From NCBI GenBank assembly GCA_013141125.1, contig JABFRO010000003.1:46458-110457 (forward strand): DNA of 64,000 nucleotides, written 5' to 3'. Under the pieces are notes generated by a model that was given only the letters and a program-made list of their open reading frames with translations, did no database searches and was not told where the DNA came from. This DNA is from Methylophilaceae bacterium (GTDB lineage: Bacteria > Pseudomonadota > Gammaproteobacteria > Burkholderiales > Methylophilaceae). The position numbers and the translations under genes were made by a program. This document shows, one piece after another, positions 9,445-46,453 of the stretch (its first letter is position 1; every line of letters begins with the position of its first letter).

Positions 9445-9457
9445 AAGGAAAGTGCCA

Positions 9458-31335: not shown

Positions 31336-32328
31336 CTACAACCCATCCAGCGGACTGCTCACCCCGCGTCCGCCCTTGTTCAGTACATGGGTATAAATCA
31401 TTGTTGTCGTCACGTCAGAGTGACCCAACAACTCCTGCACCGTGCGAATATCATAACCGGCCTGCAGCAAATGCGTGGCAAAACTATGGCGCAAGGTATG
31501 CGGACTGGTGGGCTTGGCGATGCCCGCAATTTGCGCCGCACGTTTAACATAGCGCTGCACCTGTTTCTCTTCCACATGATGGCGGCGCTTGGCTCCACTG
31601 CGCGGATCCACGGAATATTTGCTCGCGGCAAATATATATTGCCAACCCCATTCTTTCGGCGCGTTGGGATATTTTACCGCCAAGGCATCCGGCAGCCAGA
31701 CATCCACTTTGCCTGCCAGCAAATCCTCATCAAACCAGGCACGCCGCCGCGTGATTTGCTCACGCATGGCTTCAAGCAAACTTTCAGGCAACATGGTCAC
31801 GCGATCCTTGCCGCCCTTGCCGTCACGCACAATAATCTCGCGGCGCGACAAATCCACATCCTTCACCCGTAACCTGACGGCTTCCATCAAACGCATCCCG
31901 GTGCCATAAAGCAATTTGATCATCAAACCGATAGGCTCTGGCGCCTGATCTGTCCCACGCAACAACGCTTGCACTTCCAATGGTGTCAACACCACAGGCA
32001 AACGTTTGGGTTTTTTTGAGCGTTCAAAATTATTCAGCCAAGGCAAATCCAGCGCCAACACCTCGCGATACAGAAACAATATCGCGGACAAAGCCTGATT
32101 TTGAGTGGCGCTTGCCACCTGACGCGTGGTGGCCAGATAAGTCAAAAAAGCCTCCACTTCGTGCGCCCCCATCTCCAGCGGATGCCGCTTGTCATGGAAC
32201 AAAATATACTGTTTAATCCAGGACACATACACTTCTTCCGTGCTCAAACTATAATGCTTGAACCGAATTTTATCGCGTACCTGGTCAAGCAACTTGGGTG
32301 CTGGCGGCAATGTCGTATCTTCTTGCAT
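31336..32328 (-). CDS. intI: integron integrase IntI
   Basis: Tyrosine recombinase motifs TGMRLMEAVRLRV, HTLRHSFATHLL, MIYTHV. It also has the integron-specific extra segment (DVWLPDALAVKYPNAPKEWGWQYIFAASKYSVDPRSG). Confidence 0.92.
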   Translation of the reverse strand: MQEDTTLPPAPKLLDQVRDKIRFKHYSLSTEEVYVSWIKQYILFHDKRHPLEMGAHEVEAFLTYLATTRQVASATQNQALSAILFLYREVLALDLPWLNNFERSKKPKRLPVVLTPLEVQALLRGTDQAPEPIGLMIKLLYGTGMRLMEAVRLRVKDVDLSRREIIVRDGKGGKDRVTMLPESLLEAMREQITRRRAWFDEDLLAGKVDVWLPDALAVKYPNAPKEWGWQYIFAASKYSVDPRSGAKRRHHVEEKQVQRYVKRAAQIAGIAKPTSPHTLRHSFATHLLQAGYDIRTVQELLGHSDVTTTMIYTHVLNKGGRGVSSPLDGL

Positions 32329-32366
32329 AAAATGACTTAAAAGTTAATGGAATGTTAATTATGCTA

Positions 32367-32395
32367 TTGAATTTTAATAATACAAGTTATATTAT
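32367..32395 (+). promoter_or_regulatory. candidate cassette promoter (Pc-like)
   Basis: TTGAAT-17 nt-TATTAT pointing into the array. The context is AT-rich, so chance matches are likely. Confidence 0.35.
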
Positions 32396-32442
32396 ACGAC
32401 TTGGCCTAAGAATTATAGGACAAAAGATGTCGTATATATTAC

Positions 32443-32449
32443 GTTGGGC
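32443..32449 (+). other. attI recombination core
   Basis: GTTGGGC (GTTRRRY), 115 bp from the intI start and 6 nt before the first cassette ATG. Confidence 0.5.
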
Positions 32450-32454
32450 ATTCC

Positions 32455-33081
32455 ATGTCGCCATCCAATGAGTCTCTGCCCGTCAAGGGAAAAATCGGCA
32501 GCAAACTAAAGCAAATAGTTTTTGGCTGTCTTGCTATTACTGGCGTAGTAGCCGTGATCTGGCACGGCCTTTTCCCATTGCTTCATGGAAAGTCGAATGG
32601 ACATAAAGTCTACCTCTCTCCGAGCAACAAATACAAAGCCATCCTTTTCAATTGGAATGGTGGTGGAGGACTTTCTCCCTATTGTTATAACTCGATTTCC
32701 GTTGTTTCAACGACGGTAAGTGATGATGCCGCTGACAATGATCGATACAGCGTCTATTCCGGCGGTTGCCACGCGGTTGGAGACAGCGACTATGCTCCTA
32801 CAATTAAATGGCTATCCGGTGTCGAACTAGAAATTACTTACAATCTTACTCAGGCAGTGCATGGCATAGACCATGTGGTTTTAAAAGGTTCGGCTGACTC
32901 TGGTCAAGTTTTTGTTATCCACAAAAATATCATGCCCTATCAGCCCAACCCGCCGTTCAAGCGGGACGCGCTAAAGCGCGCCCCTCAATTTTACGTTGAG
33001 GCTGTAGAAAAACCCCCTCCTAATTTCACCCGATTCCGCCTTGGGAATGTACGCAACCCCATGTTTTATATGCAGTTATAG
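32455..33081 (+). CDS. cassette 1: hypothetical membrane-anchored protein; 3' end reads through its attC
   Basis: 208-aa ORF with one N-terminal TM helix (IVFGCLAITGVVAVIW). No motif recognised. Confidence 0.55.
   Translation: MSPSNESLPVKGKIGSKLKQIVFGCLAITGVVAVIWHGLFPLLHGKSNGHKVYLSPSNKYKAILFNWNGGGGLSPYCYNSISVVSTTVSDDAADNDRYSVYSGGCHAVGDSDYAPTIKWLSGVELEITYNLTQAVHGIDHVVLKGSADSGQVFVIHKNIMPYQPNPPFKRDALKRAPQFYVEAVEKPPPNFTRFRLGNVRNPMFYMQL
32943..33001 (+). repeat. attC (59-bp class) of cassette 1
   Basis: R'' GCCCAAC ... stem GCGGGACGCGC/GCGCGCCCCTC with unpaired bases ... R' GTTGAGG. Confidence 0.65.
33002..33049 (+). repeat. left half of a long attC-like repeat (family 2), split by an IS
   Basis: CTGTAGAAAAACCCC is complementary to GGGGTTTTTCTACAG at 34865-34879. 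It aligns with the intact copy at 37765-37873. Confidence 0.55.
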
Positions 33082-34812
33082 ATGATAACCGCTTGATTTC
33101 ATGCTATAATTCCGCCATTCCAATTCACTGGCGGGCAGGATTTCCCCATGGCACGTTTCAAACCCACCCACAAAGGCCTGAAACTCCTGGCCGTTGACTT
33201 TGACCAGCAAATCCTCCCCGGCACCTTTGAACATGCCTTGTGCCATCTCATCGATCACGAACTCGATCTTTCTGCTTTCCATGCGCGTTACCAGAACGAC
33301 GACGGTGGCGCTTCCGCCTATCACCCCGCCGCACTTCTCAAGATCATTTTGCTCGCCTACAGTCGCGGCCTCCTTTACAGCCGCAGGATAGAAGCCGCCT
33401 GCCGCGAGAACATAGTCTTTATCGCCGTCTCCGGTGACAGCCAACCCCACTTCAGCACCATTGCCGCCTTTGTGTCCGGCATGGGCGATGCCATCGCCTC
33501 CCTCTTTGCCCAAGTGCTGCTGGTGTGTGATCGTCAGGGCTTGATCGGGCGCGAGATGTTTGCCATTGACGGCGTTAAACTGCCCGCCAATGCCAGCAAG
33601 GCCAAATCCGGCACACGCGCCGATTATCAGCGGCAAATGGAGAGAATGGAGCAAGCCGCCAAGACCCTGCTGGAGAAACACCAACGCGCCGATGCCGCGC
33701 TCACGGAGGCAGCGATGGGGCAACGCGAGGCCAACAAGCTCGCGCGATTGCAAAAGGAGGCCACCCAACTGCGTGACTGGCTGCAAGCCAACACCCATGA
33801 CCGCAAGGGCAGCCGTGGCAGCGTCATCCTCTCCAACCGCACTGATAACGAATCCGCCAAAATGGCCACCGGCAAGGGCGTGGTGCAAGGCTATACCGGT
33901 GTCGCTACCGTGGATGAGAAAGCGCAGATCATTCTGGATGCAGAAGCCCACGGCACCGGCTCGGAACAAGCCTTGCTGCTCCCCGCGATAAAAGCCGTCG
34001 CCGCCTATATGACACCGGAAACGGTGATTACCGCCGATGCCGGATATTATTCGGAAAGCAATTGCCAGGCACTGGCCACCCAATCCATCGAAGCCTATAT
34101 CCCCGACCCGGATTACCGCAAGCGCGATGAGCGCTATGCCGACCAGGGGATTCATACGGCCAAACCGGATCCGTTGTGGAACAAGGCCAGGTCAGGGAAA
34201 GTCGCCACACACAAAAAGAAAGCCCGCTGTTTCAAGCCTGCCGACTTTGTATTGGCCGAGGATCATTCGCACTGCCTGTGTCCGGGCGGAAAACGACTGT
34301 ATGGCAATGGTTCCAATTGCACCATAGGCGGACGCATCGCCCTCAAATTCTCGGGAGCCAAACAGGATTGTGTGCCATGCGACAAACGTAACGAGTGCTT
34401 ACGCACCCCGGATAAAACACTGGTCCGGCAAGTGGCCTTTTTGCAGGGGAGGCGCGATTCAAGCCCCAGTGTGTTGGAACAAATGAAAGCCAGGATCGAC
34501 AGTGCGCGTGGAAAGGCAATGATTACACGCCGCTTTGCCACCGTGGAACCCGTGTTTGGCAACTTGCGCGGGAATAAACATCTGCACCGCTTTACGCTAC
34601 GTGGCAAAGATAAAGTGGATGGGCAATGGAAGCTGTATTGTTTGATGCATAACGTGGAGAAACTGGCGCATCATGGTTATGCCAGCTAAGGCGGGGATGA
34701 GGAAGGTAACCATGCGTGTGCAGAAGTGCCCATAGGCTGAACTAACACGGTGAACCGGGCAAAAAAAACGGCGGGAATGAATGAACATCGAAAAAGGGGC
34801 TGGGGATGCATG
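33050..34812 (+). mobile_element. IS1182-family-like insertion sequence (ends approximate, +/- 30 bp)
   Basis: A single 513-aa DDE transposase gene flanked by the two halves of an attC-like repeat. Possible short IR GCAACCCCA / TGGGGATGC. Confidence 0.55.
33148..34689 (+). CDS. IS1182/IS5-like DDE transposase
   Basis: N-terminus LPGTFEHALCHLIDHELDLS...GGASAYHPAALLKIILLAYSRGLLYSRRIE. C-terminus VEPVFGNLRGNKHLHRFTLRGKDKV...LMHNVEKL. Confidence 0.85.
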   Translation: MARFKPTHKGLKLLAVDFDQQILPGTFEHALCHLIDHELDLSAFHARYQNDDGGASAYHPAALLKIILLAYSRGLLYSRRIEAACRENIVFIAVSGDSQPHFSTIAAFVSGMGDAIASLFAQVLLVCDRQGLIGREMFAIDGVKLPANASKAKSGTRADYQRQMERMEQAAKTLLEKHQRADAALTEAAMGQREANKLARLQKEATQLRDWLQANTHDRKGSRGSVILSNRTDNESAKMATGKGVVQGYTGVATVDEKAQIILDAEAHGTGSEQALLLPAIKAVAAYMTPETVITADAGYYSESNCQALATQSIEAYIPDPDYRKRDERYADQGIHTAKPDPLWNKARSGKVATHKKKARCFKPADFVLAEDHSHCLCPGGKRLYGNGSNCTIGGRIALKFSGAKQDCVPCDKRNECLRTPDKTLVRQVAFLQGRRDSSPSVLEQMKARIDSARGKAMITRRFATVEPVFGNLRGNKHLHRFTLRGKDKVDGQWKLYCLMHNVEKLAHHGYAS

Positions 34813-34889
34813 GAAATGCGCATTTTAAAAAATTCTCTACGGAATAAACGGGTGGTTTAGAATGGGGTTTTTCTACAGCGTCGTTGGGC
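34813..34889 (+). repeat. right half of the IS-split attC-like repeat (family 2)
   Basis: GGAATAAACGGGTGGTTTAGAATGGGGTTTTTCTACAGCGTCGTTGGGC ending in R' GTTGGGC. Confidence 0.6.
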
Positions 34890-34921
34890 AACTCAAACCA
34901 CAACTCATACCAGGGAATGCA

Positions 34922-36058
34922 ATGTTTGAACGCACCTTTTTCCATATAGACGAATTTGGCAGCGCTGGTATGGCGTACCTGCCCTCAATTCTTACTTTAA
35001 ATAGATCAACTGTGCTTTGGTCTCCAGCTCCAATGTTGCTTGACCATAGCCATAATCAAGGAAGCAGTATTATTGGAACTGAGGAACTGCTCAAGCTGCT
35101 GCGGAAGCGTATTGTTCGGATTATCGGTAGGCGAAATTGGTTTGATCGATCATGGCGAAATCGAGCGGGTGCTTGGGAATTTGCCAAGTGGCAGGACGAT
35201 TTCGACAATGAGGTCTGCGCTATGGCGAACGAGGATGCTAACGAACCTCTTTCTAACAGGCGCGTCATTATCGCGCCAGATGAGCAAGGTTTCGAGCGAG
35301 CGGAGTTGCTGTTAAAGCAAGACCCTGTCCTTGTTGAAAAACTCACTTCCTTGCTGTCACATCGACAGTTACCCCAAGGCATATTGGAAAAGGCAGAAAG
35401 AGCAAAGCGCCAAGGTAGGGGTGTGGAAGTTCAAATACTCAGAGATGCGTTCAATCACCAACAAGCGATTATTGACGCAGATGCGCGTTCTGCAACCGTC
35501 CCAGACACTTTCATGAACACGCTCGTCGCACTGATTAAAGGCTTGGAGCCAACCACTGCAACCGACAATCTGCTTCCGGCGGACGAATCGTGCTTGCGCG
35601 ATGCTCTTGATCTACTTAGGGCAGTTCGCGCACCCACATCATTTGAATCGCTGGAAGCATTCCTTTCTTCGGGCGCACGTGATGATCTCGTTTCACTGCT
35701 TTGCTCTAACCGTGCAGCAGGATCACTTCCAGACTCCATCATCTGGCAAATCGAGCAAGCCACGAAAATTCGCCCTGTTCTTGATCGCCTCTTCCCTTCC
35801 CGTGATCCTGTTGGGTATTCGAGTTCACTGGCCACATTCGTTTCGACGCTTGCGTCACTCATATCTTCGGGCGCCTCCGTCGGACTCATCACGATCCCGT
35901 TTCAGGTCTGTAAAGGATGGCTTCAAGAACGTAGTCTTGTTCCTCTGGAAGTGGACAAGAAATATAAAGTGAAGCCACTGTTTCAGTTAGCTATCGGCAC
36001 AGACCGACCTAAAAAAGACGAGGTTGAGGCACTACTAATAGCTCTTCGTCATGCATAG
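34922..36058 (+). CDS. cassette-borne hypothetical protein (378 aa), no recognisable motif
   Basis: Long uninterrupted ORF. The internal ATG is chosen because the ORF-track start at 34862 lies inside the attC-like repeat. Confidence 0.7.
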   Translation: MFERTFFHIDEFGSAGMAYLPSILTLNRSTVLWSPAPMLLDHSHNQGSSIIGTEELLKLLRKRIVRIIGRRNWFDRSWRNRAGAWEFAKWQDDFDNEVCAMANEDANEPLSNRRVIIAPDEQGFERAELLLKQDPVLVEKLTSLLSHRQLPQGILEKAERAKRQGRGVEVQILRDAFNHQQAIIDADARSATVPDTFMNTLVALIKGLEPTTATDNLLPADESCLRDALDLLRAVRAPTSFESLEAFLSSGARDDLVSLLCSNRAAGSLPDSIIWQIEQATKIRPVLDRLFPSRDPVGYSSSLATFVSTLASLISSGASVGLITIPFQVCKGWLQERSLVPLEVDKKYKVKPLFQLAIGTDRPKKDEVEALLIALRHA

Positions 36059-36102
36059 CGCGTCAAAATCTCTGTTGCACCGTACACGCGCATGAGTTGC
36101 CC

Positions 36103-36118
36103 AAACAATAGGGGACAG
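36103..36118 (+). repeat. copy 1 of the direct repeat AATAGGGGACAG
   Basis: aacAATAGGGGACAGc, immediately 3' of the IS110 fragment. Confidence 0.6.
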
Positions 36119-36153
36119 CAACTGTCTTGAAATAAATTGTTTTTGACCGGTTT

Positions 36154-36666
<513 letters not shown>

Positions 36667-36688
36667 TTAATGATATACTTCAGCTCGC

Positions 36689-36770
36689 GTAGGTTGGGCA
36701 GAATGCAATGAAGCCCAACAATAAACAATTCCTTGAATGTTGGGCTTCGCTACCGCTCTGCCCAACCTAC
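36689..36770. repeat. nested REP-like palindrome carrying integron-core-like GTTGGGC/GCCCAAC motifs
   Basis: Outer arms GTAGGTTGGGCAG / CTGCCCAACCTAC; inner arms GAAGCCCAACA / TGTTGGGCTTC. Confidence 0.75.
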
Positions 36771-36971
36771 CGCGTTAAATGACGCCTGCGTATTTCATAA
36801 ATTATATCCATGTAAAACACTCCAGATACCCCCAGCTAAAACACTGGATGGTGACATACTGAGGTGGAAACTATTGGACGCCGATTAACATACATTCACC
36901 GTCGCGGTGTTGTCACCTTACCTGAACTGCCAGACAAGTTAATTGTCGTTAGACCAGACTAGATAATTGTC

Positions 36972-37128
36972 GCTTAATAGTAGAAAAACCTAAATTTCAA
37001 AAAATCAGTTTTAAATTTGTAAAACCTGGTCTCTAATATCGCTTTGCAAGCGACGATCATCATGCTGGGAGGAGTTAAGTGACACTTGTTAAAATAATTT
37101 TTTGGGTTTTTCTACAGCGTCGTTAGCC
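36972..37128 (+). repeat. long attC-like repeat, family 1 (ORF-less unit)
   Basis: About 90 percent identical by eye to 38397-38558. Ends GGTTTTTCTACAGCGTCGTTAGCC. The left core is degenerate (GCTTAAT). Confidence 0.6.
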
Positions 37129-37139
37129 ATCAATAAAAT

Positions 37140-37168
37140 TTGCATATCGTAAACAAATTGTTTATAAT
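37140..37168 (+). promoter_or_regulatory. sigma70-like promoter of the higBA cassette
   Basis: TTGCAT-17 nt-TATAAT. The -10 ends 6 nt before the higB ATG and there is no Shine-Dalgarno sequence. Confidence 0.55.
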
Positions 37169-37174
37169 TGGCGC

Positions 37175-37456
37175 ATGATTCAAACATTCGCCAACCCTGA
37201 AACCGAAAGCTTTTTCGTTACAGGTAAATCGCGTCGTTTACCTTCGGAAATTCTCAAGCGTGCAGCCATGCGTCTCAATCAGTTGCATGCCGCTACAGAG
37301 TTGAATGATCTACGTTTGCCACCCTCTAATAATTTAGAGGCTCTTTCGGGTAGCCGCGTTGGTCAATGGAGCATACGCATAAACCAACAGTGGCGTGTCT
37401 GTTTCAAGTTTGAAAATGGTGACGCATTTGATGTGGAAATAGTGGATTACCACTAG
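37175..37456 (+). CDS. higB: HigB-like (killer protein) toxin
   Basis: 93 aa; ...GQWSIRINQQWRVCFKFENGDAFDVEIVDYH C-terminus typical of the HigB family. Confidence 0.9.
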   Translation: MIQTFANPETESFFVTGKSRRLPSEILKRAAMRLNQLHAATELNDLRLPPSNNLEALSGSRVGQWSIRINQQWRVCFKFENGDAFDVEIVDYH

Positions 37457-37466
37457 GAGTAATAAC

Positions 37467-37763
37467 ATGATCTACAATAGTTCAACGCCCCTCCATCCTG
37501 GCGAATACCTCGCCGAAATCCTTGAAGAGCTTCATATCTCCCAAGCGCTGTTCGCTCGTACCATTGGTGTGTCGCCTATGCGCATTTCCCATATTATTAA
37601 AGGCAAGCGCCCTGTTACGGCTGAACTGGCATTGCTGTTTGCAAAAGCTTTTGAGCAAACTCCACAGTATTGGCTCAATTTGCAAGCCAGCTATGATCTA
37701 AAAACTGCTGAGAAAAGCATCGCCAGTCGTCTCTTCTCCATTCATAGCTTGGCTCATGCTTAA
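37467..37763 (+). CDS. higA: HigA-family HTH antitoxin
   Basis: HPGEYLAEILEELHISQALFARTIGVSPMRISHIIKGKRPVTAELALLF...WLNLQASYDL. Confidence 0.9.
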   Translation: MIYNSSTPLHPGEYLAEILEELHISQALFARTIGVSPMRISHIIKGKRPVTAELALLFAKAFEQTPQYWLNLQASYDLKTAEKSIASRLFSIHSLAHA

Positions 37764-37764
37764 T

Positions 37765-37873
37765 GACTAACCCCTCATTCCACCGGATTGGCCGAAAAGT
37801 GCGGCTAGCCGGTGAATTCGCTGTGGAATAAACAGGAGGTTTAGAATGGGGTTTTTCTACAGCGTCGTTAGGA
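37765..37873 (+). repeat. attC-like repeat, family 2 (intact copy)
   Basis: GACTAAC...ATTCCAC/GTGGAAT stem...GGGGTTTTTCTACAGCGTCGTTAGGA. Confidence 0.6.
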
Positions 37874-37888
37874 CACCTCATTCAACTT

Positions 37889-37917
37889 TTGATTTTAGTG
37901 CAATAAAGGTATATTTT
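37889..37917 (+). promoter_or_regulatory. candidate promoter of the brnTA cassette
   Basis: TTGATT-17 nt-TATTTT. The -10 ends 7 nt before the brnT ATG and there is no Shine-Dalgarno sequence. Confidence 0.4.
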
Positions 37918-37924
37918 ATATACC

Positions 37925-38197
37925 ATGATTGCATTTGAATTTGACGAAACTAAAAGTCAGGCTAATCTTTTGAAGCATGGCATCAACTTCGTTGATGCAC
38001 AACAGCTTTGGAATGATCCAATGTTATTGGAAATTCCTGCTAAAACTGAAGATGAGCCAAGATTTCTCATGATAGGCCTGATTAACACCAAGCATTGGTC
38101 GGCGGTTATCACTTACAGAGGCGCAGATATTCGACTTATTTCTGTTCGTCGCTCACGCACCGAGGAGGTAGCATTATATGAAAGCTATAAACTTTGA
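37925..38197 (+). CDS. brnT: BrnT-family (DUF497) toxin
   Basis: FEFDETKSQANLLKHGINFVDAQQLWND...IRLISVRRSRTEE. Confidence 0.85.
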   Translation: MIAFEFDETKSQANLLKHGINFVDAQQLWNDPMLLEIPAKTEDEPRFLMIGLINTKHWSAVITYRGADIRLISVRRSRTEEVALYESYKL

Positions 38198-38402
38198 AAA
38201 ACAATTTGACGAGGATGTTGATATTACGTCTTCACTAGACATTTCAAAAGCAAAGCGCGTTTTGCAAGCGCAGAAACGCGTGAATGTTGATTTTCCAACC
38301 TGGATGATTGAATCTCTAGACCGTGAGGCTGGAAAGCTTGGCGTGACTCGACAGTCGGTCATTAAGGTGTGGCTTGCTGAGCGTCTTGAAAAAGTTGCCT
38401 AA
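38178..38402 (+). CDS. brnA: BrnA/CopG-type antitoxin
   Basis: Overlaps brnT by 20 nt. C-terminal RHH-like VDFPTWMIESLDREAGKLGVTRQSVIKVWL. Confidence 0.75.
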   Translation: MKAINFEKQFDEDVDITSSLDISKAKRVLQAQKRVNVDFPTWMIESLDREAGKLGVTRQSVIKVWLAERLEKVA

Positions 38403-38558
38403 CGACACTGTAGAAAAACCTAGATTTCAAAAAATCAGTTTTAAATTTGTAAAACTTGGTCTCTAATATAGATTTTTAAGCGACGATCATCATGCTGGGA
38501 GGGGTTAAGTGACGCTTGTAAAAAATAATTTTTTTGGTTTTTCTACAACCTCGTTAGG
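38397..38558 (+). repeat. long attC-like repeat, family 1
   Basis: R'' GCCTAAC (contains the brnA stop) + GACACTGTAGAAAAACC ... GGTTTTTCTACAACCTC + R' GTTAGGC. Confidence 0.7.
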
Positions 38559-38596
38559 CATCAAAAACACTCCCCCCTTTTTTCAGGAGATTTAGC

Positions 38597-39067
38597 GTGA
38601 TCGAAACTTTCGTTTCCAGACCCACATGGGCTCCACCTGAAATAGAGCAAAAGCTGAGCGGTTTCTATCAATTGCTCGAAGACACAGGATTCAAAGCAAA
38701 TACTATCGGAACGAGTCAAGCACCGCTCAGATCTCCATTTGAAGATGTGAAGCGACTGATTAAGAAGTGTAAGTGCACAATCGTTCTGGGGCTTCCGCAA
38801 GTTTTCATTGCAACGGGCTCGTTGAAAACTACTCCGATCACATCGCCGGTGGCATTCGCGACTGAATGGAATCAAATTGAGGCCACTATGTCGCTGATGC
38901 TTGATTTGCCAACGCTTGTACTATTGCACGACTCTGTGGCGGCAAGAGGAATATTCGACCGCGGCGCTGCAAATGTATTTGTATACGGCTTCAATGTGCT
39001 CGAAGAATCTTGGCTCTCATCACTACGCCCAGCACTGAATTCGCTTAAAGAAGCCATTGATGCCTAA
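38597..39067 (+). CDS. cassette-borne hypothetical protein (156 aa)
   Basis: GTG start 7 nt after AGGAG. Alternating strand/helix pattern. The stop lies inside the attC R''. Confidence 0.65.
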   Translation: MIETFVSRPTWAPPEIEQKLSGFYQLLEDTGFKANTIGTSQAPLRSPFEDVKRLIKKCKCTIVLGLPQVFIATGSLKTTPITSPVAFATEWNQIEATMSLMLDLPTLVLLHDSVAARGIFDRGAANVFVYGFNVLEESWLSSLRPALNSLKEAIDA

Positions 39068-39124
39068 CGAATAAGGTTAGATCGCGATCGCGAAGCGAGC
39101 CGCGATCTGAACCGTTTGTTGGAC
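39062..39124 (+). repeat. attC (about 60-bp class), last recognisable site of the array
   Basis: R'' GCCTAAC; GGTTAGATCGCG / CGCGATCTGAACC stem with one extrahelical base; R' GTTGGAC. Confidence 0.7.
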
Positions 39125-39446
39125 AAGCCCGGCCAAGGCCTACAAACGCTAGGCAAATAGCTCCTCAATCCGGCCTTGCATTAAAGGGCTGAGATGCCCA
39201 GGATATTTTAAAAAGCCACCTTCAATTTCAGTGCCGGAAGTGGCTGTTTTACCCGATTTCAGCCGTTTTTAGAGTGAGTTGAGCCGCACCTGCTGATGGC
39301 GGCAGGTTGGCGGGCGTGCTGGTTTACAGGGCAGTCTCCCTGATTGGCACCTGGCAGCGTGATGTATTCATCTCACATCTCAACCGCGTGCGCACTATCC
39401 GCATTGGCTTGCCGCTGCTCGTAGCCCGGAAGCCGCCCAATATCAG

Positions 39447-39559
39447 TAGGGCGGGATGAGCGTAGCGTTTCCGCCGTATGGTTTGGTTTGTCTATGGCCA
39501 GCCGTAGATAAGACCCAGCCAGCTCATGCGCCGGATAACGCTACGCTCATCCCGCCTAC
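39447..39559. repeat. REP pair / long inverted repeat
   Basis: GTAGGGCGGGATGAGCGTAGCGTT ... AACGCTACGCTCATCCCGCCTAC separated by about 55 bp. Confidence 0.75.
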
Positions 39560-39694
39560 GCGAGCTGTATGTGTTGATCTTCTCATCCGGTGCAATCCGT
39601 TACGATTTTTTCGATCTGTTTCGATATTGCCAAATGTGAAATCTTGAAAGATGGATCCGCGCTGCAATCCGCCATGCCAATAGCTCATTAAAAC

Positions 39695-42474
39695 TCACAT
39701 CTGCCTTGTAATCACCGCCACCGGCGGTGCCCAGGCATCGCCGGGACGTTTTTTGTGGGTGACCAGGGTTAGTTGTGAGGGGTCGTAGACGTTGACGTTG
39801 TGGGTGATGGGCGAGGTGATGAGGTATTGCGCGCGGGTGGCCTTGAGGAAGGCGCTGACGCGGTCTATGTTGAAAATATCCAGATGCGCGAAAGGTTCAT
39901 CAATGAACACAAAGCCGCTGGATTGATCTTCGTCCATCATCAGGCCGATCAGCAATATCAGCGATTTCATCACTTGCTGGCCGCCGCTGGCCTCGCCGTC
40001 GTTCATGCCCATCATGCCTTTGCTGTCAAAGTTGAAATTGACCTCCAGCCCGGCCTGCGCGAGTGCCAGATCATCGTTTTCCAAAGGCGGTAATTCGCCG
40101 TGCACTACGATGCCGGCCAGCTCGCCCAGGTGGCGTATGTTTTTGAGATATTGGCGCACTGTGGCTCTCAAGACATTGATGTATTCACCGCGCGCGCCAT
40201 CGGTGAGCGATTGCGCGCGCTGGTTATCGGCGCGGCGCTGGTCATTTTCTTTCTGCATGGTGGTAAATTCATTCTGAAATTTGGCCAGCAGTAAAATTAC
40301 TGCGTCGTCGGTTTCCCATTGTTCGCTGTTGAATCTGTTCACCAGCTCGTTGATTCTGAAGCGTACATGGGTGGCATCGCCATAGCGTTGTTTCAAGGCT
40401 TCCTGTTCAATTTTGTTGAACCAGTGTTGTGGCCGTTTGGCTCTATCCTGACGAAATAGCTGTATGCGCTTGATCTGTTCTTCACGCGGGTTGCGCAGAT
40501 TTTCCTGCAAATCGGTGATTTTTTTATTCAGATCGGTCAGTTGTTGCAGGGTTTTGCTGAGCTGTTTATCGGCGGCATGACGTGCCTCATTGGTGCTGGT
40601 TTTAGCGCTATCGGCACTGGCCAGTTGTTGGCCGGCGGTTTGCACTTCGGTGTGCAGGGCGGCTAATTTTTGCTCGGCATCGCCAAATTCATCGGCGCGA
40701 ATTTCCAGCATTTGCGCGGCGTTAATGCCTTTGAGCAAGCCGTCATTGTGCTGCACTTTTTGCCGCAGGGTGAGGCTTTGCTGTTCCAATCGGTTTAATT
40801 GCTGATTCAGCACAGATTCTTCATTGGCGGCGGCTTCCAGGCGCGCGCTTTTGGCCGATTCGCCAAATTGATAATCCTGCTTGGCGATGCCGATATGGCG
40901 GCCGCCACGGCGTTCGCGCTGATAGCCATCACGCGTAATCCAATCTTGTGCGGCGGGTAAATCACGGCCTTGGGCAATATGGGCCACGCGTTGAATGCGG
41001 TTGAGCAGATTGGCCAGCCAGGCGGGCGGCAGACTGCTGAAGCTGACCACTTCCAGCAAGGAGCCAGCCAGCGCGGCAGGTACTTCGGCCTGGTCGCTGC
41101 TGATAAAATGCCGGTAGTTCAAACGCTCGCCGATTTGCCAGGCCGCAATTTTATCCGCTTCCCGGCGCAGTAAAATCAAATGGCGATAAGGTGCCAGCAC
41201 TGCTTCCAGTGCAGATTGCCAGCCGGTGTCGGTGACTTCAATAATATCCGGCAATAAACGGTGGGCAATATTGGTTTCATCCAGTGCGGTGCGTACCTGA
41301 TTAACAAAGCCGGGGGAGGGCGCTTTGCCGCTACGTAGCGCGGCAATCAATGACGTGCATTCGGCGCGGCGTTCACGCAGGTTGCGCATTTCGGCTTCCA
41401 GCGTTGCCAGTTGTTGCCGTGCCTGGCCCAGTTCTTCGGCCAGTTTTGCGGTGTCCTGGCTGGCTTCGCTTTGGCATAAACGGCGCAGTTTTTCGCGCTC
41501 ATCCAGCACGGCCTGTGTTTTTATTTGCTGTTCGCGTAGCTGGGCAAACCGTTCGCTCGCCGCTTTATATTCCGCATTGGCGCGGTTTTCCTGTTGCTCA
41601 GCAGCTGTCAGTGCGGCTTCCTGCGCGCTATGCAGTTGGCGCGTCTGCTCTGCATCTTGCACACGATCACGCAATTGGCGGCGCTGGCCGCGTAGCTGGT
41701 TTTGCGCGCCGGAAATGGAATCCCTCAGCTCAATCAGGCGCAGGCGCGGCAGCGTTTCTGTTTCCAGCGCGCGTTGTTCGCGTTGCAAATTCTCCCATTC
41801 ACGGTAGCGATTAACGCGCGAAGTGTATTTTTCCACCTGATTATCCAGCGCCGTCAGCTGCACATCCATGGCCTGCAATTCGCGCTCGGTTTCGCGCTGC
41901 TGGGTTTTGGCTTCGGTATAGGCCTCCAGAATCTGTTTGTCACCAAACACCTGAAACACCAAGTCGAGCAAGGCTTTGGGCGAATATTCGCACAGCTTGT
42001 CGGTATCGCCTTGCTCCAGCGCCAGCACTTCGGCAATGGCGGCAGACAAGCCCAGCCGCCGTTTATAATCTTTCACGCCCAGCCATTCGGCGTTTTTTTC
42101 CAGGTCTTCAATGGCAATGTTGCCGGGGACGATCAAATATTGGCGTTGCCAATCGCCGCCTTGTTTGCGGATGCGGCAGGCCAGCGTGACTTCGTCCTCC
42201 ATAATCGGAAAAAATGGATGGCGTTGATTGGCAATGCGGCGGTTATCCACCACCGCACGTAGCCAGGCAAAGGATTCATTGGAGCGGCGCACATAGCGTT
42301 TGTAATCGCGCTTGCCCGAGCAATCCAGCCCAACAGCGTGCGCAGTGCGTCCAGTAGCGTGGTTTTGCCGGAACCGTTGGGGCCGACGATGGTGATAATC
42401 TGCGTATCCAGCGGCAAACTGAAGCGTTGCCAAAAATCCCAGTGCACCAGTTCCAGCGAGCGAAAATTGAACAT
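39695..42474 (-). pseudogene. SMC-like ATPase (MksB/JetC-like), disrupted by a 1-nt frameshift near 42328-42332
   Basis: Walker A GPNGSGKTT sits in one frame (ORF 42133-42474). The rest sits in the 977-aa ORF frame from LDCSGKRDYKRY onward. It has coiled coils, a hinge-like LPDIIEVTDTGWQSALEAVLAPYRHLILL, signature ASGGQQ and Walker B FVFIDEPFAHLD. Length is 2780 nt, which is 3n-1. Confidence 0.8.
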
Positions 42475-43178
42475 CAGATGCTCTCCTCGTCTGACTCAAT
42501 TTCAGCTGGCGCTGATTCGTCCGTGTAATTTTCATCAATCCCGGTGCTGATAATGGGTTTTGCCAATAACTCGGCCAGCGCGCCTTCAATAATGCGGCCT
42601 TCCATGGTGGGGTAATCCAGCAAAACATCCAGCATATGGCCTTCCAGTATCATGCCTTTGCGCCGGATGACAAAGCCCAACCTGGCCAGCACGCCCAGAT
42701 TGACATTGATGCGCATCTTGCCGCCCAGCTTGTCACCAAAATCGGCCATCAGTGTGCTTTCAAGAATGCCGCTGGAAACCTCCTCACCGCGCGGCATGGG
42801 CTTGTCGGCGGCAAACATATCGTCCTGATTCTCGCTATCGCGCGATTTGCGCCCGGTTTGGCGCTCGCGTTTGGGCAAGATAATTAGCGCCCATAACACC
42901 ACCAGCAAAGCCACACCATCGCGCTGCAAACCCATATTGTTATTGAGCCAGGTTTCGCCGCCGCCAAACACGACGTTTTCCGCCTCGCGCAATAAACCCA
43001 GCGCCACATGATCGGCATAAGGGTTATCCAGCAAGCATAAACCGCAAGCCGCCAAGCGCGTTTCCAGCTCCAGACGAAAACCCTCATCCGTAAGCGAACG
43101 CCGCACCAGCTTATCCTCGCGCGGCAGACTGCGATGCGCCAACAACCGCGCGATTAAGGTTTGTATATCTCGTTCCAA
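42474..43178 (-). CDS. MukE/MksE (JetB)-like subunit
   Basis: 234 aa. wHTH-like LGVLARLGFVIRRKG, a hydrophobic LLVVLWALIIL block and an acidic tail. The stop overlaps the ATPase start (TGATG). Assigned from context and remembered MukE features, not from a search. Confidence 0.55.
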   Translation of the reverse strand: MERDIQTLIARLLAHRSLPREDKLVRRSLTDEGFRLELETRLAACGLCLLDNPYADHVALGLLREAENVVFGGGETWLNNNMGLQRDGVALLVVLWALIILPKRERQTGRKSRDSENQDDMFAADKPMPRGEEVSSGILESTLMADFGDKLGGKMRINVNLGVLARLGFVIRRKGMILEGHMLDVLLDYPTMEGRIIEGALAELLAKPIISTGIDENYTDESAPAEIESDEESI

Positions 43179-43218
43179 AAGGCTTTCCTAATTAATTCTG
43201 TTGTGTAATCAATGCTAA

Positions 43219-44508
43219 TTATGGTTTGTTGGCTAGCGGCATCAACATGCCGTTACTGATGCTGGCCACGCCATCACGATTAACGGCGATGTGTTCCTGT
43301 TGCAGCTTTAGCGCAATGGGTAATTGCGCAAATTTGGCTACCGCGCCGCTGGAATGTTGCGATTCGGTTTCGCTATTGAGCAAGGCCAGCAGCGAGAATC
43401 TATAGGCGGCATGCGCATAGCCGCCGCCCACCACGGCATCCTGCAAGGGCGTGTTATGCGTGATGAGCGACAGGGTGTCATGAAAGCTTTCCAGCAATTC
43501 CAGACGCAGAGTTTGCGTGTTTTCCTGCTGCGGTGCTGCGCTGGCGGGTGGCAAATGGCTGGCAGCGGCTTTTTCGCGCTCGCGTTCCAGCAGCTCGAAT
43601 TCTGCGCTATCCAGCATTTCTTGTTCGGTGACAAATAAGGGTTCAGGATGCGCCCACACCGAGCCGATGGCCAGATCGGCGATATGCTCCAGAGCACAGC
43701 CGCGCAGCCAGCTGGAAATATCCGAAGAAGACAAACCGCTATCACCCAGATGCACGCGTTGCCGCTCCAGACTGATGAGCGCGCGGCTGAAAACCCCGGT
43801 CATGCGCAACATGCGGCTTTGTGCCTGGGCGATGCTTTGCGCAATGCGCCAGGCAGAAGTTCCCAATTCGCCGTTGGCATTAAGGTTGTGGATAATTTCC
43901 GTGCCTTTTTCCACCCACTTCCACACCGATTCCAGCTTGGTTTGCGCGCGTTTCAAGCGAAATTCTGAGCCGGACAGCACCGCCTGATCGAATTCATTTT
44001 GCAATTCGGTCAGCCGCCCCAGCAAATGTTGCAGCGTTTCTGTCGATACACGGCCTATGGCTTGCCCCGCCGCCACTTGCGCGGTGATAAAGCCCAGCTC
44101 GGCATCTTCTTCCCCCGCCAGTTCCAGCACATTCGCCAGAGCCGCCAGCGCAATGCGTCCGGCGGGGGATAGTTGATACAGCCTGTCTTCAGCGTCCCAT
44201 ACCAGCAATTCATTATCGCGCAAGCGCCCGAGCACGGTTTGCAGCTTGACCGTATCCAGATAAGCAAAATGCGCCTGCAACTCCTGCGCACTCCAGCTCG
44301 GCGCATCCGCCCGTGCGCCGATTTCACGCAACACCAGCAGCCGAATCAAAACCTCATCACTACCACCACGAAACAAAGTGATAAACGCATTCAGCGTGTC
44401 ATGCGCGCGCAGCAATGGGTAGAGCGCTGGCAAATCGCCGGTTTCAATACCGGGGGCGAAAAATGCGCTGAGATCGGGGCTGGGGGGGGAAGGAGGCAGG
44501 ACTGCCAT
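43219..44508 (-). CDS. kleisin-like MukF/MksF (JetA)-like subunit
   Basis: 429 aa. N-terminal wHTH-like LGRLRDNELLVWDAEDRLYQLSPAGRIAL and a long helical middle. First gene of the three-gene module. Confidence 0.55.
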   Translation of the reverse strand: MAVLPPSPPSPDLSAFFAPGIETGDLPALYPLLRAHDTLNAFITLFRGGSDEVLIRLLVLREIGARADAPSWSAQELQAHFAYLDTVKLQTVLGRLRDNELLVWDAEDRLYQLSPAGRIALAALANVLELAGEEDAELGFITAQVAAGQAIGRVSTETLQHLLGRLTELQNEFDQAVLSGSEFRLKRAQTKLESVWKWVEKGTEIIHNLNANGELGTSAWRIAQSIAQAQSRMLRMTGVFSRALISLERQRVHLGDSGLSSSDISSWLRGCALEHIADLAIGSVWAHPEPLFVTEQEMLDSAEFELLEREREKAAASHLPPASAAPQQENTQTLRLELLESFHDTLSLITHNTPLQDAVVGGGYAHAAYRFSLLALLNSETESQHSSGAVAKFAQLPIALKLQQEHIAVNRDGVASISNGMLMPLANKP

Positions 44509-45765
44509 TTACCCGCGCACTTCGCCATTCCCCAGCACAATATATTTCACGCTGGTCAACCCTTCTAGGCCGACCGGGCCGCGTGCGTGGAGTTTATCGG
44601 TGGAGATGCCGATTTCCGCGCCCAGGCCGTATTCAAAGCCGTCGGCAAATCTAGTAGAGGCGTTGACCATGACCGAGCTGGAATCCACTTCACGCAGGAA
44701 TCTTCTGGCGTAGGTATAGTTTTCGGTGACGATGGCTTCGGTATGTTGCGAGGAATACTGGTTGATATGTGCAATGGCTGCGTCCAGTCCGTCCACCACT
44801 TTGCAGGAGATAATCGCGGCCAAGTATTCGGTGTAGTAATCCTCATCGGTTGCGGCTTGGGCTTGCGGCACTAATGCGCAGGTTTCCGAACAGCCACGGA
44901 TTTCCGTGCCTTTGGCGCTCAGCATGGCGGCGATTTTTGGCAGCATAGCGGCGGCCACGCTGCGCGCAACCAGCAAGGACTCCGCCGTGTTGCAGGTGCC
45001 TAGACGCTGGGTTTTGGAGTTTTCAATAATGCGTAGCGCCTTGGCGAAATCCGCGTCGTCATCCACATACACATGGCAATTGCCATCCAGATGTTTGATG
45101 ACGGGAATGCGTGCTTCGGCGGAAATGCGCGCTATCAGCCCCTTGCCACCGCGCGGCACGATGACATCGACGTATTCCTGCATGGTAATCAGCTCGCCGA
45201 CGGCGGCTCTGTCCGTGGTTTCCACCACTTGCACGGCGCTGGCAGGCAAACCTGCTGCCGCCAAGCCTTCATGCACCAGTTTTGCCAGCGCTTGATTGCA
45301 GTTTATCGCCTCGGAACCGCCGCGCAAAATGGCGGCATTGCCGGATTTGATGCATAGCCCGGCGGCATCCACGGTCACATTGGGGCGCGCTTCGTAAATA
45401 ATGCCGATAACCCCCAGCGGCACCCGCATATTGCCCACCTGTATGCCGGAAGGCCGATATTTGAGGTTGCTGATTTCGCCGATAGGGTCGGTCAGTGCGG
45501 CGATTTGCTCCAGACCTTCGGCCATGGTGGCGATGGATTTTTCCGATAAGGCCAGTCTATCCAGCAGCGCTTCTTCCAAGCCTGCCGCGCGCGCGGCTTG
45601 CATATCCAAAAGATTGGCCGCCAGCAGCGCCGATTTCTCGCGGCGAATCGCCTGCGCTATCGTCACCAGCGCCAGATTTTTGGCATTGGTCTCCGCCCGT
45701 GCCATCAAGCGTGAAGCGGCACGCGCCTTCGCGCCTAGTTGTTGCATGTATTGTTTAATCGCCAT
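44509..45765 (-). CDS. proA: glutamate-5-semialdehyde dehydrogenase
   Basis: [31 protein letters not shown] motifs. The internal ATG ([11 protein letters not shown]) is preferred. Confidence 0.95.
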
Positions 45766-45812: not shown

Positions 45813-46052
45813 TCAATCAAGTCGGTCAAATTCTTCGGTTTTAAGCGCAGGCACTTTGGCCAAAGCCTGATCGAACGCCGCCCGCGATCCGCGCAATGCG
45901 CGTGATTTGAGATAGCTTTCTGTGGTCAAGGCCGCTACTTTTTCTGCCACTGCGGTGGCAATGAATTGATTAAGTGAGACATTATCTTCTTCGGCAACAT
46001 CTTTGGCCATTTTGTGTAAAGATTCCGATAAACGTACACTAAGTACACTCAT
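45813..46052 (-). CDS. ribbon-helix-helix-type antitoxin
   Basis: [39 protein letters not shown]. Overlaps the PIN gene by 4 nt (ATGA). Confidence 0.7.
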
Positions 46053-46453
46053 AAATTCTCCAATAGTTTTAGTAAGCCTCGCGGAGTTTCGACTGTTAGT
46101 CCAAATTGTGCAGCTGGTACAAAGTCTTTCAGGTTCCAGGTAATAATCATGGCATTGGTTTTTACCGCCAATTCCAGTATGTGGTCGTCTTGCGGGTCGC
46201 GCAAGACAGGCCGCCATAAATAAAAAATTCCGTGCTTCTCCGAGATGTGGCAGAGATAATCAACGACGGCCTCCACATCGGTATCGCTTAAAGATTTATT
46301 ACGCTTTAATGCCGCCTCGTATTCCAGCACTAGGGGTGTTGAAATGTGTAATTGCAATGACGTTTGATCTATTCGTTGCAATAGCCGGTAGGATGCGCCT
46401 AGTGACGACCTTATCGCGGAAAATAATACGTTGGTATCCAGAATAATATTCAT
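46049..46453 (-). CDS. PIN-domain toxin
   Basis: MNIILDTNVLFSAI N-terminus; acidic residues spaced as in PIN nucleases. Confidence 0.8.
   Translation of the reverse strand: MNIILDTNVLFSAIRSSLGASYRLLQRIDQTSLQLHISTPLVLEYEAALKRNKSLSDTDVEAVVDYLCHISEKHGIFYLWRPVLRDPQDDHILELAVKTNAMIITWNLKDFVPAAQFGLTVETPRGLLKLLENL

What the first reader, a model, noticed from the sequence alone, without database searches (positions are those of the whole stretch)
39695..44508. GC-rich MukFEB/MksFEB (JetABC)-like SMC module without a JetD/MksG nuclease, next to the integron
Seen: there are three co-directional genes. (1) A 429-aa protein with a wHTH-like N-terminal segment (LGRLRDNELLVWDAEDRLYQLSPAGRIAL) and a long helical middle. 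(2) A 234-aa protein with a wHTH-like LGVLARLGFVIRRKG and an acidic tail, the same size class and features as MukE. (3) An SMC-like ATPase of about 926 aa with GPNGSGKTT, coiled coils around a hinge-like block, ASGGQQ and FVFIDEPFAHLD. The second and third genes overlap (TGATG). Established: this order and size pattern is that of MksF-MksE-MksB condensins and of JetA-JetB-JetC in the Wadjet anti-plasmid system, whose DNA cleavage needs the Toprim protein JetD/MksG. Here no such gene follows. Inference: this is an orphan accessory condensin, a decaying Wadjet, or a JetABC-type DNA sensor working with an unlinked or unknown effector. Its position among cassettes, IS and TA loci favours a defence-related origin.
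Basis: partly seen in the sequence, partly recalled or inferred. Interest (0 to 1): 0.7.

Follow-up and report, generated by a model that had tools for sequence, protein, structure and literature searches.

The report
Wadjet-type SMC module, nuclease gene unlinked
These three genes are the DNA-motor part (kleisin, KITE and SMC ATPase) of a divergent Wadjet/MksBEFG-type anti-plasmid system; its nuclease gene has not been lost but was moved by a chromosomal rearrangement to another place in the same genome, and the apparent frameshift is peculiar to this assembly.

Summary
On the minus strand lie a 429-aa kleisin-like gene (44508..43219), a 234-aa KITE-like gene (43178..42474) and a 926-aa SMC-like gene (42474..39695). 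The SMC gene is broken by loss of one G in a GGGG run. No jetD follows it.

Sequence profiles (Pfam, NCBIfam, PADLOC) do not recognise the two small proteins. AlphaFold models do: the 429-aa protein matches MukF best, and the 234-aa protein matches JetB, Nse3, MukE and ScpB.

The module belongs to a compact chromosomal clade, found in 407 species genomes and on no plasmid. In every closest relative the SMC gene is followed directly by a roughly 405-aa Toprim JetD-like gene. One clade member (L049) is listed as an FEBG operon in the Wadjet-group catalogue of Bürmann et al. 2025.

In this organism, a Methylophilaceae MAG, an intact jetD orthologue sits elsewhere, still attached to its ancestral neighbour nadD. 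A rearrangement therefore cut exactly between jetC and jetD.

Two sibling assemblies carry GGGG and an intact jetC. The three genes have dN/dS of about 0.1.

The best reading is a split but probably working Wadjet system. It is a new member of a known kind and of moderate interest.

The parts
43219..44508 (-). jetA/mksF-like kleisin gene (429 aa): N-terminal winged-helix domain, long helical middle, disordered linker, C-terminal winged-helix domain
   Evidence: ORF. AlphaFold2 model has mean pLDDT 82.5. The top Foldseek PDB hits are MukF chains: 9gm7_C at E 1.6e-4 (prob 0.99), then 7nz2, 9gm9, 3euh and 1t98. No Pfam, NCBIfam or PADLOC JetA hit. All 37 of 37 family-invariant residues are kept.
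42474..43178 (-). jetB/mksE-like KITE gene (234 aa, TTG start): tandem winged-helix with an acidic tail
   Evidence: ORF. AlphaFold2 model has pLDDT 74. Foldseek hits are JetB 8dk1_E at E 2.2e-5 and 8as8_C at 3e-5, then Nse3, MukE and ScpB. Pfam DUF4194 hits weakly in 7 of 46 family members, best E 0.0012. 34 of 35 invariant residues are kept.
39695..42474 (-). jetC/mksB-like SMC ATPase gene (926 aa once repaired): Walker A at 31, signature SGGQ at 830, Walker B IDEP at 858, D-loop AHLD at 863
   Evidence: Pfam SMC_N at 1.6e-16. PADLOC JetC models reach 2.7e-23, mostly over the coiled coil. The protein is 100% identical to the intact 926-aa protein MEQ1602197.1 of the sibling assembly. 102 of 104 invariant residues are kept.
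42329..42331 (-). site of the -1 frameshift: a GGG run here, GGGG in the sibling assemblies
   Evidence: The window reads TTGGGCTGG. L086 (GCA_040080335.1) and L083 (Logan SRR11487827) read TTGGGGCTGG. Over 11 kb the window and L086 differ by one mismatch and this one gap.
44509..45765 (-). proA (gamma-glutamyl phosphate reductase). This is the conserved upstream neighbour, and its stop codon abuts the kleisin ATG.
   Evidence: Pfam Aldedh. Junction TAAATG. The proA-F-E-B order is shared with L004-L010, L038, L039, L042, L056, L065 and L084.
39068..39694 (.). 3' flank that replaces jetD: unique non-coding DNA with an internal inverted repeat (39450-39556). The breakpoint lies at or just after the jetC stop codon.
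   Evidence: No similarity to JetD or to any related locus other than the siblings L083 and L086. In relative L084 the jetC stop overlaps the jetD start (ACATGAACGG).
38597..39125 (+). last cassette of the integron array (156-aa ORF plus an attC-like end), abutting the module's 3' flank
   Evidence: Sequence. attC-like repeat families. The IntI-like integrase at 31336..32328 is.

Best explanation
This is the motor and sensor half of a divergent Wadjet/MksBEFG (JetABCD) system: JetA-like kleisin, JetB-like KITE and JetC-like SMC ATPase.

**How it got here.** In the ancestor, the order was proA-jetA-jetB-jetC-jetD-nadD, as it still is in the nearest relatives. In this Methylophilaceae lineage a chromosomal rearrangement cut exactly at the jetC/jetD junction. 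jetABC stayed with proA and now ends against the distal end of an integron cassette array. jetD stayed with nadD-rsfS-rlmH at another locus, on a different contig.

**State of the genes.** All four genes remain intact in the population. The single-G deletion in jetC is peculiar to this assembly, being either a sequencing error or a very recent mutation.

**Inferred mechanism.** This follows established Wadjet biology and was not tested here. A dimer of SMC-kleisin-KITE motors loads on DNA and extrudes it. The motors stall against each other on small circular DNA. The Toprim nuclease JetD, here supplied in trans, is then recruited and cleaves the plasmid.
For: **Subunit identities**
- SMC motifs are present.
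- The kleisin model matches MukF.
- The KITE model matches JetB, Nse3, MukE and ScpB.

**Family context**
- 407 species genomes carry the module.
- In 27 of the loci fetched, the SMC gene is followed by a roughly 405-aa protein: directly in most, after one intervening 288-aa ORF in the Dechloromonas/Azonexus group. That protein hits PADLOC JetD1 at 4e-18 and Pfam DUF2399 in 5 of 20 members.
- It has invariant Toprim motifs, E-N-x-x-x-F-E and C-D-P-D-P-A-G-I.
- All relatives with 57% or more kleisin identity have it.
- An NJ tree places the JetD-bearing loci as ancestral.
- Family member L049 is entry 330, an 'FEBG' operon, in Data S1 of PMC7617805.

**Unlinked jetD**
- P0494 is NOT68081.1 / HOP04_07115 (430 aa). 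It carries the same MAG locus-tag prefix as the window's kleisin (HOP04_13270) and KITE (HOP04_13265).
- It is also present as MEQ1603082.1 in sibling MAG GCA_040080335.1.
- It is 63% identical to the linked JetD of L084 and keeps 55 of 56 invariant residues.
- It is followed by nadD, as in L084.
- It has a promoter-like site just upstream of the conserved start.

**Integrity of the module**
- GGGG and an intact 926-aa ORF are found in two sibling assemblies.
- Between the two strains that lack an adjacent jetD, dN/dS is 0.09 (F), 0.09 (E) and 0.14 (B).
- Family-invariant residues kept: 37/37, 34/35 and 102/104.
Against: - No functional data exist for any member of this clade.
- The kleisin and KITE are not recognised by any JetA/JetB/MukF/MukE sequence profile, so the assignment rests on predicted structures with low TM-scores (0.18-0.35).
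- Whether JetD still associates with JetABC once expressed from another locus is inferred.
- MAG binning could in principle place the two contigs together wrongly, although two independent MAGs agree.
- Several sister clades keep the three genes for long periods with no jetD next to them. A JetD-independent role is therefore possible for this module too.
- If the frameshift is real in this strain, the system is off here.
Confidence: 0.6

Rival explanations
1. Nuclease-independent accessory condensin, of the MksBEF type described in Pseudomonas aeruginosa. After separation from jetD, the three-gene complex serves chromosome organisation or segregation, and the unlinked JetD is irrelevant to it.
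For: Whole clades of this family keep intact F-E-B with no jetD beside them. These are the Chitinibacteraceae (in a fixed ispB-rplU-rpmA-obg ... rlmL-like housekeeping neighbourhood), the Lysobacteraceae, some Desulfuromonadales and one Gallionella locus. The family is chromosomal and was not found on any PLSDB plasmid. In the window the module is probably co-transcribed with proA. The literature accepts nuclease-free Wadjet-group members such as MukBEF and MksBEF as chromosome organisers (PMC7617805; 10.1101/2020.05.18.101659).
Against: The window's lineage separated from jetD recently: its sister L084, at 69-75% identity, still has it linked. jetD is retained intact in several assemblies, which is unexpected if it were useless. 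Whether the clades without an adjacent jetD also carry one elsewhere could not be tested.
Confidence: 0.22
2. Decaying remnant. The system lost its nuclease neighbour, jetC is now a pseudogene, and the module is on its way out.
For: There is a frameshift in jetC in this assembly. Related loci exist in which the SMC gene is gone but F and E remain (L009, L012). The module borders a cassette array with IS elements.
Against: The frameshift is one base in a homopolymer. It is absent from two sibling assemblies that are otherwise 99.98% and 98.3% identical. dN/dS is about 0.1. There is no other lesion, and nearly all invariant residues are kept. The breakpoint spares both jetC and jetD.
Confidence: 0.1
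3. JetABC-type DNA sensor re-wired to a different, unknown effector, for example a product of the neighbouring cassettes or TA loci, instead of JetD.
For: The module adjoins HigBA, BrnTA and unknown cassettes. Related operons have acquired extra genes inside them: a 219-aa ORF between F and E, a GNAT between E and B, and a 288-aa ORF between B and JetD.
Against: The cassettes are on the opposite strand, are typical mobile integron cargo, and are not conserved with the module in any other locus. No nuclease-like partner is conserved next to the modules that lack jetD. The original JetD is available in trans.
Confidence: 0.05

Closest known systems
Wadjet / MksBEFG / JetABCD plasmid-restriction systems (Doron 2018; Liu 2022; Deep 2022; Weiss 2023, PMC10123090), and the 'Wadjet group' catalogue of Bürmann et al. 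2025 (PMC7617805)
   Same: - Gene order is kleisin-KITE-SMC(-Toprim nuclease), with overlapping or abutting genes.
- Predicted folds are shared: JetB-like KITE, MukF-class kleisin, SMC head-coiled coil-hinge.
- The nuclease of the clade has invariant Toprim E and DxD motifs and hits PADLOC JetD and Pfam DUF2399.
- One clade member, Geobacter sp. DNJC01000016.1 (L049), is listed as an FEBG operon in that paper's Data S1.
   Different: - The SMC is short, 926 aa, against roughly 1100-1400 aa for JetC as I recall it; the catalogue's lower cut-off was 890 aa.
- The kleisin and KITE lie outside Pfam DUF3375/DUF4194, TIGR02677/8 and all PADLOC JetA/JetB models, so standard defence finders built on such profiles would probably not call it.
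- In this genome the nuclease gene is not in the operon but at a distant locus.
Nuclease-free MksBEF of Pseudomonas aeruginosa PAO1 (Petrushenko 2011; Lioy 2020)
   Same: Three-gene mksFEB operon without an adjacent mksG, chromosomal, co-existing with other chromosome-maintenance genes. The coiled coils are shorter than in MukB (from my memory of Petrushenko 2011; that paper is not held in the library).
   Different: PAO1 MksBEF is described as a condensin with no nuclease partner. Here an orthologous nuclease gene persists in the genome, and all nearest relatives are four-gene systems. A direct sequence comparison with PA4684-PA4686 could not be made with the tools available.
MukBEF of Escherichia coli
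   Same: Same subunit classes and gene order. MukF is the best structural match of the 429-aa protein, and MukE is among the matches of the 234-aa protein.
   Different: MukB is 1486 aa. There is no significant profile similarity to MukF or MukE (hhalign probability below 1%). The Pfam MukB N-terminal hit is below its cut-off. No MatP/Dam-linked context is present.
Lamassu (LmuB SMC-like ATPase with LmuA effector)
   Same: An SMC-like ATPase with weak PADLOC LmuB hits (7e-17).
   Different: Lamassu has no MukF-class kleisin and no tandem-winged-helix KITE, and it carries an LmuA effector. None of that applies here.

Membership tests
Wadjet / MksBEFG (JetABCD) group | SMC-family ATPase with Walker A, signature motif, Walker B, long coiled coil and hinge (JetC/MksB) | tested here: met
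   GPNGSGKT at 31, SGGQ at 830, IDEP at 858, AHLD at 863. Pfam SMC_N at 1.6e-16. PADLOC JetC at 2.7e-23. PDB Smc heads and JetC 8dk1_C by sequence. This holds only after repair of the one-base frameshift.
Wadjet / MksBEFG (JetABCD) group | MukF/JetA-class kleisin encoded first in the operon | tested here: met
   Met by predicted structure only. The top five Foldseek hits are MukF chains (E 1.6e-4 to 3.6e-2), aligned over the full length. Sequence profiles fail.
Wadjet / MksBEFG (JetABCD) group | KITE subunit (tandem winged helix; JetB/MukE) encoded second | tested here: met
   Foldseek gives JetB 8dk1_E at 2.2e-5 and 8as8_C at 3e-5, then Nse3, MukE and ScpB. DUF4194 hits weakly in 7 of 46 homologues. 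There is no hit for the window protein itself.
Wadjet / MksBEFG (JetABCD) group | Toprim nuclease JetD/MksG encoded in the same operon | tested here: not met
   No JetD-like coding capacity anywhere in the 64-kb window. The flank 39068-39694 has no remnant. It is met in 27 related loci. An intact orthologue is encoded at another locus of the same genome.
Wadjet / MksBEFG (JetABCD) group | ATP-dependent restriction or cleavage of small circular DNA | not testable with these tools
   Needs transformation or conjugation assays, or in-vitro cleavage with the purified complex.
Nuclease-free MksBEF condensin (P. aeruginosa type) | No MksG/JetD partner in the genome | tested here: not met
   HOP04_07115 / MEQ1603082.1 is an intact JetD orthologue in both MAGs of this organism.
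Nuclease-free MksBEF condensin (P. aeruginosa type) | Sequence relationship to PA4684-PA4686 and a chromosome-organisation phenotype | not testable with these tools
The distant family members that could be named are MAGs of Pseudomonadota and Sericytochromatia, not Pseudomonas.
MukBEF sensu stricto | Membership of the MukF, MukE and MukB sequence families | tested here: not met
   No Pfam MukF or MukE hit. MukB N-terminal scores 17 bits against a cut-off of 23. hhalign probabilities are 0.1% and 0.5%.

The most novel reading that the evidence does not exclude
This clade is a natural series of transitions between a nuclease-armed Wadjet and a nuclease-free MksBEF-type complex. The nuclease gene has been shed from the operon at least five times: in Chitinibacteraceae, Lysobacteraceae, some Desulfuromonadales, a Gallionella locus, and this lineage. 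Where that happened early, F-E-B has since been inherited vertically in a housekeeping neighbourhood. The window's genome would be an intermediate caught in the act, with the operon split precisely at the jetC/jetD junction and all four genes still under selection. That would show JetD can be supplied in trans in nature, and that loss of linkage precedes, or substitutes for, loss of the nuclease.
Probability: 0.35. Interest if true: 0.6.

Novelty: new member of a known kind. Interest (0 to 1): 0.42.

Why it matters
**Annotation.** A defence or condensin module that Pfam, NCBIfam and PADLOC leave as 'hypothetical' can be assigned by structure and synteny. A system scored as lacking its effector may simply have it elsewhere in the genome. 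Profile-based defence finders would probably miss this whole clade, and operon-based rules would misclassify this genome.

**SMC biology.** The clade offers closely related four-gene, split and three-gene versions of one Wadjet lineage. That is useful material for two questions. What changes when a plasmid-cleaving SMC complex loses its nuclease? How might chromosomal condensins such as MukBEF or MksBEF have arisen from Wadjet-like ancestors?

Tried and rejected
- **Sequence profiles for the two small proteins.** Pfam, NCBIfam and PADLOC on the window proteins and on 46-47 homologues each gave nothing for the kleisin except weak PADLOC 'JukB' hits (19 of 47, best 5e-5), which I judged to be winged-helix noise. 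DUF4194 for the KITE was only marginal.
- **PDB by sequence.** phmmer and profile searches found no MukF, JetA, MukE, JetB or JetD.
- **hhalign of the family profiles against E. coli MukF and MukE.** Not significant.
- **A jetD remnant in the window or in the 630-bp 3' flank.** None.
- **Plasmid-borne relatives.** None in PLSDB by tblastn.
- **Relation to P. aeruginosa MksFEB.** This could not be settled. Petrushenko 2011 and Rybenkov 2014 are not held. Ten distant representatives looked up by name were uncultured MAGs.
- **'Decay' reading of the frameshift.** Rejected after comparison with sibling assemblies and dN/dS.
- **Promoter and terminator scans of the module.** Uninformative.

Full report
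**1. What is in the sequence**

The finding's coordinates hold three co-directional genes on the minus strand.
- A 429-aa ORF lies at 44508..43219.
- A 234-aa ORF lies at 43178..42474, with a TTG start preceded by AGGAAAG.
- An SMC-like gene lies at 42474..39695.

The SMC gene is read in two frames. A 113-aa N-terminal ORF carries GPNGSGKTT, and the rest sits in the long ORF. Adding one G to the run at 42329-42331 restores a 926-aa protein. That protein has Walker A at 31, SGGQ at 830, Walker B IDEP at 858 and the D-loop AHLD at 863.

The KITE-like stop and the SMC start overlap as TGATG. The stop of the upstream proA gene abuts the ATG of the first gene (TAAATG), so read-through from proA is likely.

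The module is 55-57% GC, like proA. The window averages 49% and the neighbouring cassettes 43%.

**2. What the proteins are**

*Sequence libraries.* The SMC protein gets generic hits only: Pfam SMC_N at 1.6e-16, PADLOC JetC up to 2.7e-23 (largely coiled coil), and TIGR02168 far below its cut-off. The two small proteins hit nothing in Pfam, NCBIfam or PADLOC.

Scanning 46-47 homologues individually adds little. DUF4194 appears weakly in 7 of 46 KITE-like proteins (best E 0.0012), and nothing appears for the kleisin-like family. PDB sequence and profile searches, and hhalign against E. coli MukF and MukE, are negative.

*Predicted structures.* These settle the matter.
- The 429-aa model (pLDDT 82.5) has an N-terminal winged helix, long helices, a disordered linker and a C-terminal winged-helix domain. 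Its best PDB matches are five MukF chains; the top one is 9gm7_C at E 1.6e-4, probability 0.99, aligned end to end.
- The 234-aa model (pLDDT 74) matches JetB of P. aeruginosa and E. coli (E 2-3e-5). It then matches Nse3/MAGE, MukE and ScpB, which are all KITE proteins.

TM-scores are low (0.18-0.35), as expected for flexible multi-domain proteins. The assignment is therefore by fold class, not by close superposition.

**3. Source and family**

The kleisin is 100% identical to HOP04_13270 of a Methylophilaceae MAG, on a 463-kb contig.

The family is compact. Only 326 representatives of 1.84 billion reach E ≤ 1e-3 with the kleisin profile. The module occurs in 407 species genomes of Betaproteobacteria, Lysobacteraceae and Desulfuromonadales. 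It was not found on any PLSDB plasmid. In nearly all 80 loci fetched, the order F-E-B and the sizes (about 420/225/930 aa) are conserved.

**4. The missing nuclease**

In 27 fetched loci a roughly 405-aa gene follows the SMC gene. In most it follows directly, often with overlapping stop and start. In the Dechloromonas/Azonexus group a 288-aa ORF intervenes.

This protein hits PADLOC JetD1 at 4e-18 and Pfam DUF2399 in 5 of 20 members. It has invariant Toprim motifs, E-N-x-x-x-F-E and C-D-P-D-P-A-G-I.

Every relative with 57% or more kleisin identity has it. That includes the nearest one, L084 (72/75/69% identity), whose order is leuS-lptE-holA-proA-hicB-F-E-B-jetD-nadD.

An NJ tree of the SMC proteins puts JetD-bearing loci in basal and scattered positions. 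Loci without it fall into separate groups: all Chitinibacteraceae, all Lysobacteraceae, some Desulfuromonadales, one Gallionella, and the window's lineage. That implies several independent losses of linkage.

The clade is already catalogued. Locus L049 (Geobacter sp. DNJC01000016.1) is entry 330, 'FEBG', in Data S1 of Bürmann et al. 2025, with matching coordinates. That paper also states that several Wadjet-group members lack MksG/JetD.

**5. jetD is unlinked, not lost**

The window has no JetD-like coding capacity. The 630 bp after the SMC stop are unique, with no remnant.

A search with the JetD profile found P0494, which is HOP04_07115 of the same MAG. It is 430 aa, 63% identical to L084's JetD, and sits on a 2.0-Mb contig. 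The identical protein is in the sibling MAG GCA_040080335.1 on contig 60. There it is followed by nadD-rsfS-rlmH. nadD is 54% identical to the gene that follows jetD in L084.

The rearrangement therefore cut at the jetC/jetD junction. In L084 that junction is an overlap, ACATGAACGG.
- jetC kept its full C-terminus.
- jetD kept its conserved N-terminus (WSAPDADGICEQRLDVGAKSTL) and 55 of 56 invariant residues.
- jetD has a promoter-like site (TTGGCA-16-TACAAT) just before a plausible internal start. This is only a consensus match.

**6. The frameshift**

The sibling assembly L086 matches the window over 11 kb with one mismatch and one gap. The gap is the missing G: TTGGGGCTGG against TTGGGCTGG. 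A second strain, L083 (98.3% identical), also has GGGG. Both have a 926-aa gene called. The intact protein exists in the collection only from these assemblies, not from HOP04.

The lesion is therefore assembly-specific or strain-specific. It cannot be taken as decay.

Both the window and L083 lack an adjacent jetD. Between them dN/dS is 0.09, 0.09 and 0.14 for F, E and B, comparable with proA at 0.065. Family-invariant residues are kept at 37/37, 34/35 and 102/104.

**7. Interpretation**

Shown here:
- the subunit classes;
- orthology to four-gene FEBG operons;
- a clean split of the operon;
- intact genes under purifying selection.

Inferred from established Wadjet work (Liu 2022; Weiss 2023; Bürmann 2025): the complex loads on DNA, extrudes it, recognises small circles and activates JetD to cleave. 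Here JetD would be supplied in trans.

From memory rather than a tool result, JetD and JetABC can be purified separately and mixed to reconstitute cleavage. That would make trans supply plausible.

The main rival is a JetD-independent, condensin-like role. It draws on the long-lived clades without an adjacent jetD that sit in housekeeping synteny, ispB-rplU-rpmA-obg-F-E-B-rlmL-like. Decay and re-wiring to a cassette-encoded effector are unlikely.

**8. Novelty**

The kind is known: the Wadjet/MksBEFG group, including members without the nuclease. The clade itself is in a published catalogue. Three things are new here:
- this member;
- the demonstration that its 'missing' nuclease is unlinked in the same genome;
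- the observation that the kleisin and KITE families of this clade are invisible to current profile libraries.

Interest is moderate.

Noticed in passing
L083 4781-8552 (sibling strain, Logan SRR11487827): In a strain 98% identical across the module, four defence-type genes are inserted between proA and the kleisin gene: an ApaLI-like restriction enzyme, an N6/N4 methyltransferase, an FRG-domain protein and a GmrSD_N protein. The proA/kleisin junction therefore acts as a defence-gene insertion spot. The kleisin is called 441 aa there.
   Followed up: partly
window 44509-45765 versus 39695-44508, compared with L083: Synonymous divergence between the two strains is much higher in proA (dS 0.32) than in F, E and B (0.13, 0.04, 0.04). 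This suggests a recombination boundary at the proA/kleisin junction.
   Followed up: no
L045, L054, L061, L062, L066-L068, L076, L080 (about 9300-10000 in locus coordinates): In Iodobacter and Andreprevotia loci, and in a MAG labelled Janthinobacterium, a conserved 219-aa ORF of unknown function with no Pfam hit sits between the kleisin and KITE genes of the version lacking jetD.
   Followed up: partly
L001 11953-12495; also L014, L021, L029, L040: A GNAT acetyltransferase gene lies between the KITE and SMC genes in L001 (Jeongeupia HS-3). L014, L021, L029 and L040 (Jeongeupia, Deefgea) show a gap of the same size that was not annotated.
   Followed up: no
L024, L025, L032, L037, L079 (between the SMC and JetD genes): In Dechloromonas, Azonexus and related MAGs, a 288-aa ORF with no Pfam hit is inserted between jetC and jetD. 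It may be a fifth component.
   Followed up: no
L009 and L012: The kleisin and KITE genes are present but the SMC and JetD genes are absent. In L012, lptE and holA follow the KITE gene directly. These are genuine decayed versions of the module.
   Followed up: no
window 31336-39125: This is a chromosomal integron. It has an IntI-like integrase (31336..32328, minus strand) and attC-like repeats of the form GCCTAACGAC...GTCGTTAGGC. Its cassettes include HigB/HigA (37175-37763), BrnT/BrnA (37925-38402) and a 156-aa unknown (38597-39067). It is interrupted by an IS1182/IS5-like transposase (33148-34689) and an IS110-family fragment (36154-36663).
   Followed up: partly
L088 11882-11980 versus window 32994-33092: The contig that carries the unlinked jetD in GCA_040080335.1 ends, 2.6 kb downstream of jetD, in a 99-nt stretch that is 80% identical to an attC-like element next to the window's integron integrase. 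It might be a hint about how the rearrangement arose.
   Followed up: no
window 39450-39556: A 107-nt imperfect palindrome (75% self-complementary, REP-like, GTAGGGCGGGATGAGCGTAGCG...) lies in the unique flank that replaced jetD.
   Followed up: no
window 45813-46453: A PIN_3-domain toxin with a HicB/DUF6290-like antitoxin pair sits directly upstream of proA. Relative L084 has a different HicB-like gene between proA and the kleisin.
   Followed up: no
family alignment A1 (kleisin-like proteins): 19 of 47 family members give weak hits (best 5.4e-5) to the PADLOC model JukB. This is probably a shared winged-helix region, and it was not examined further.
   Followed up: no
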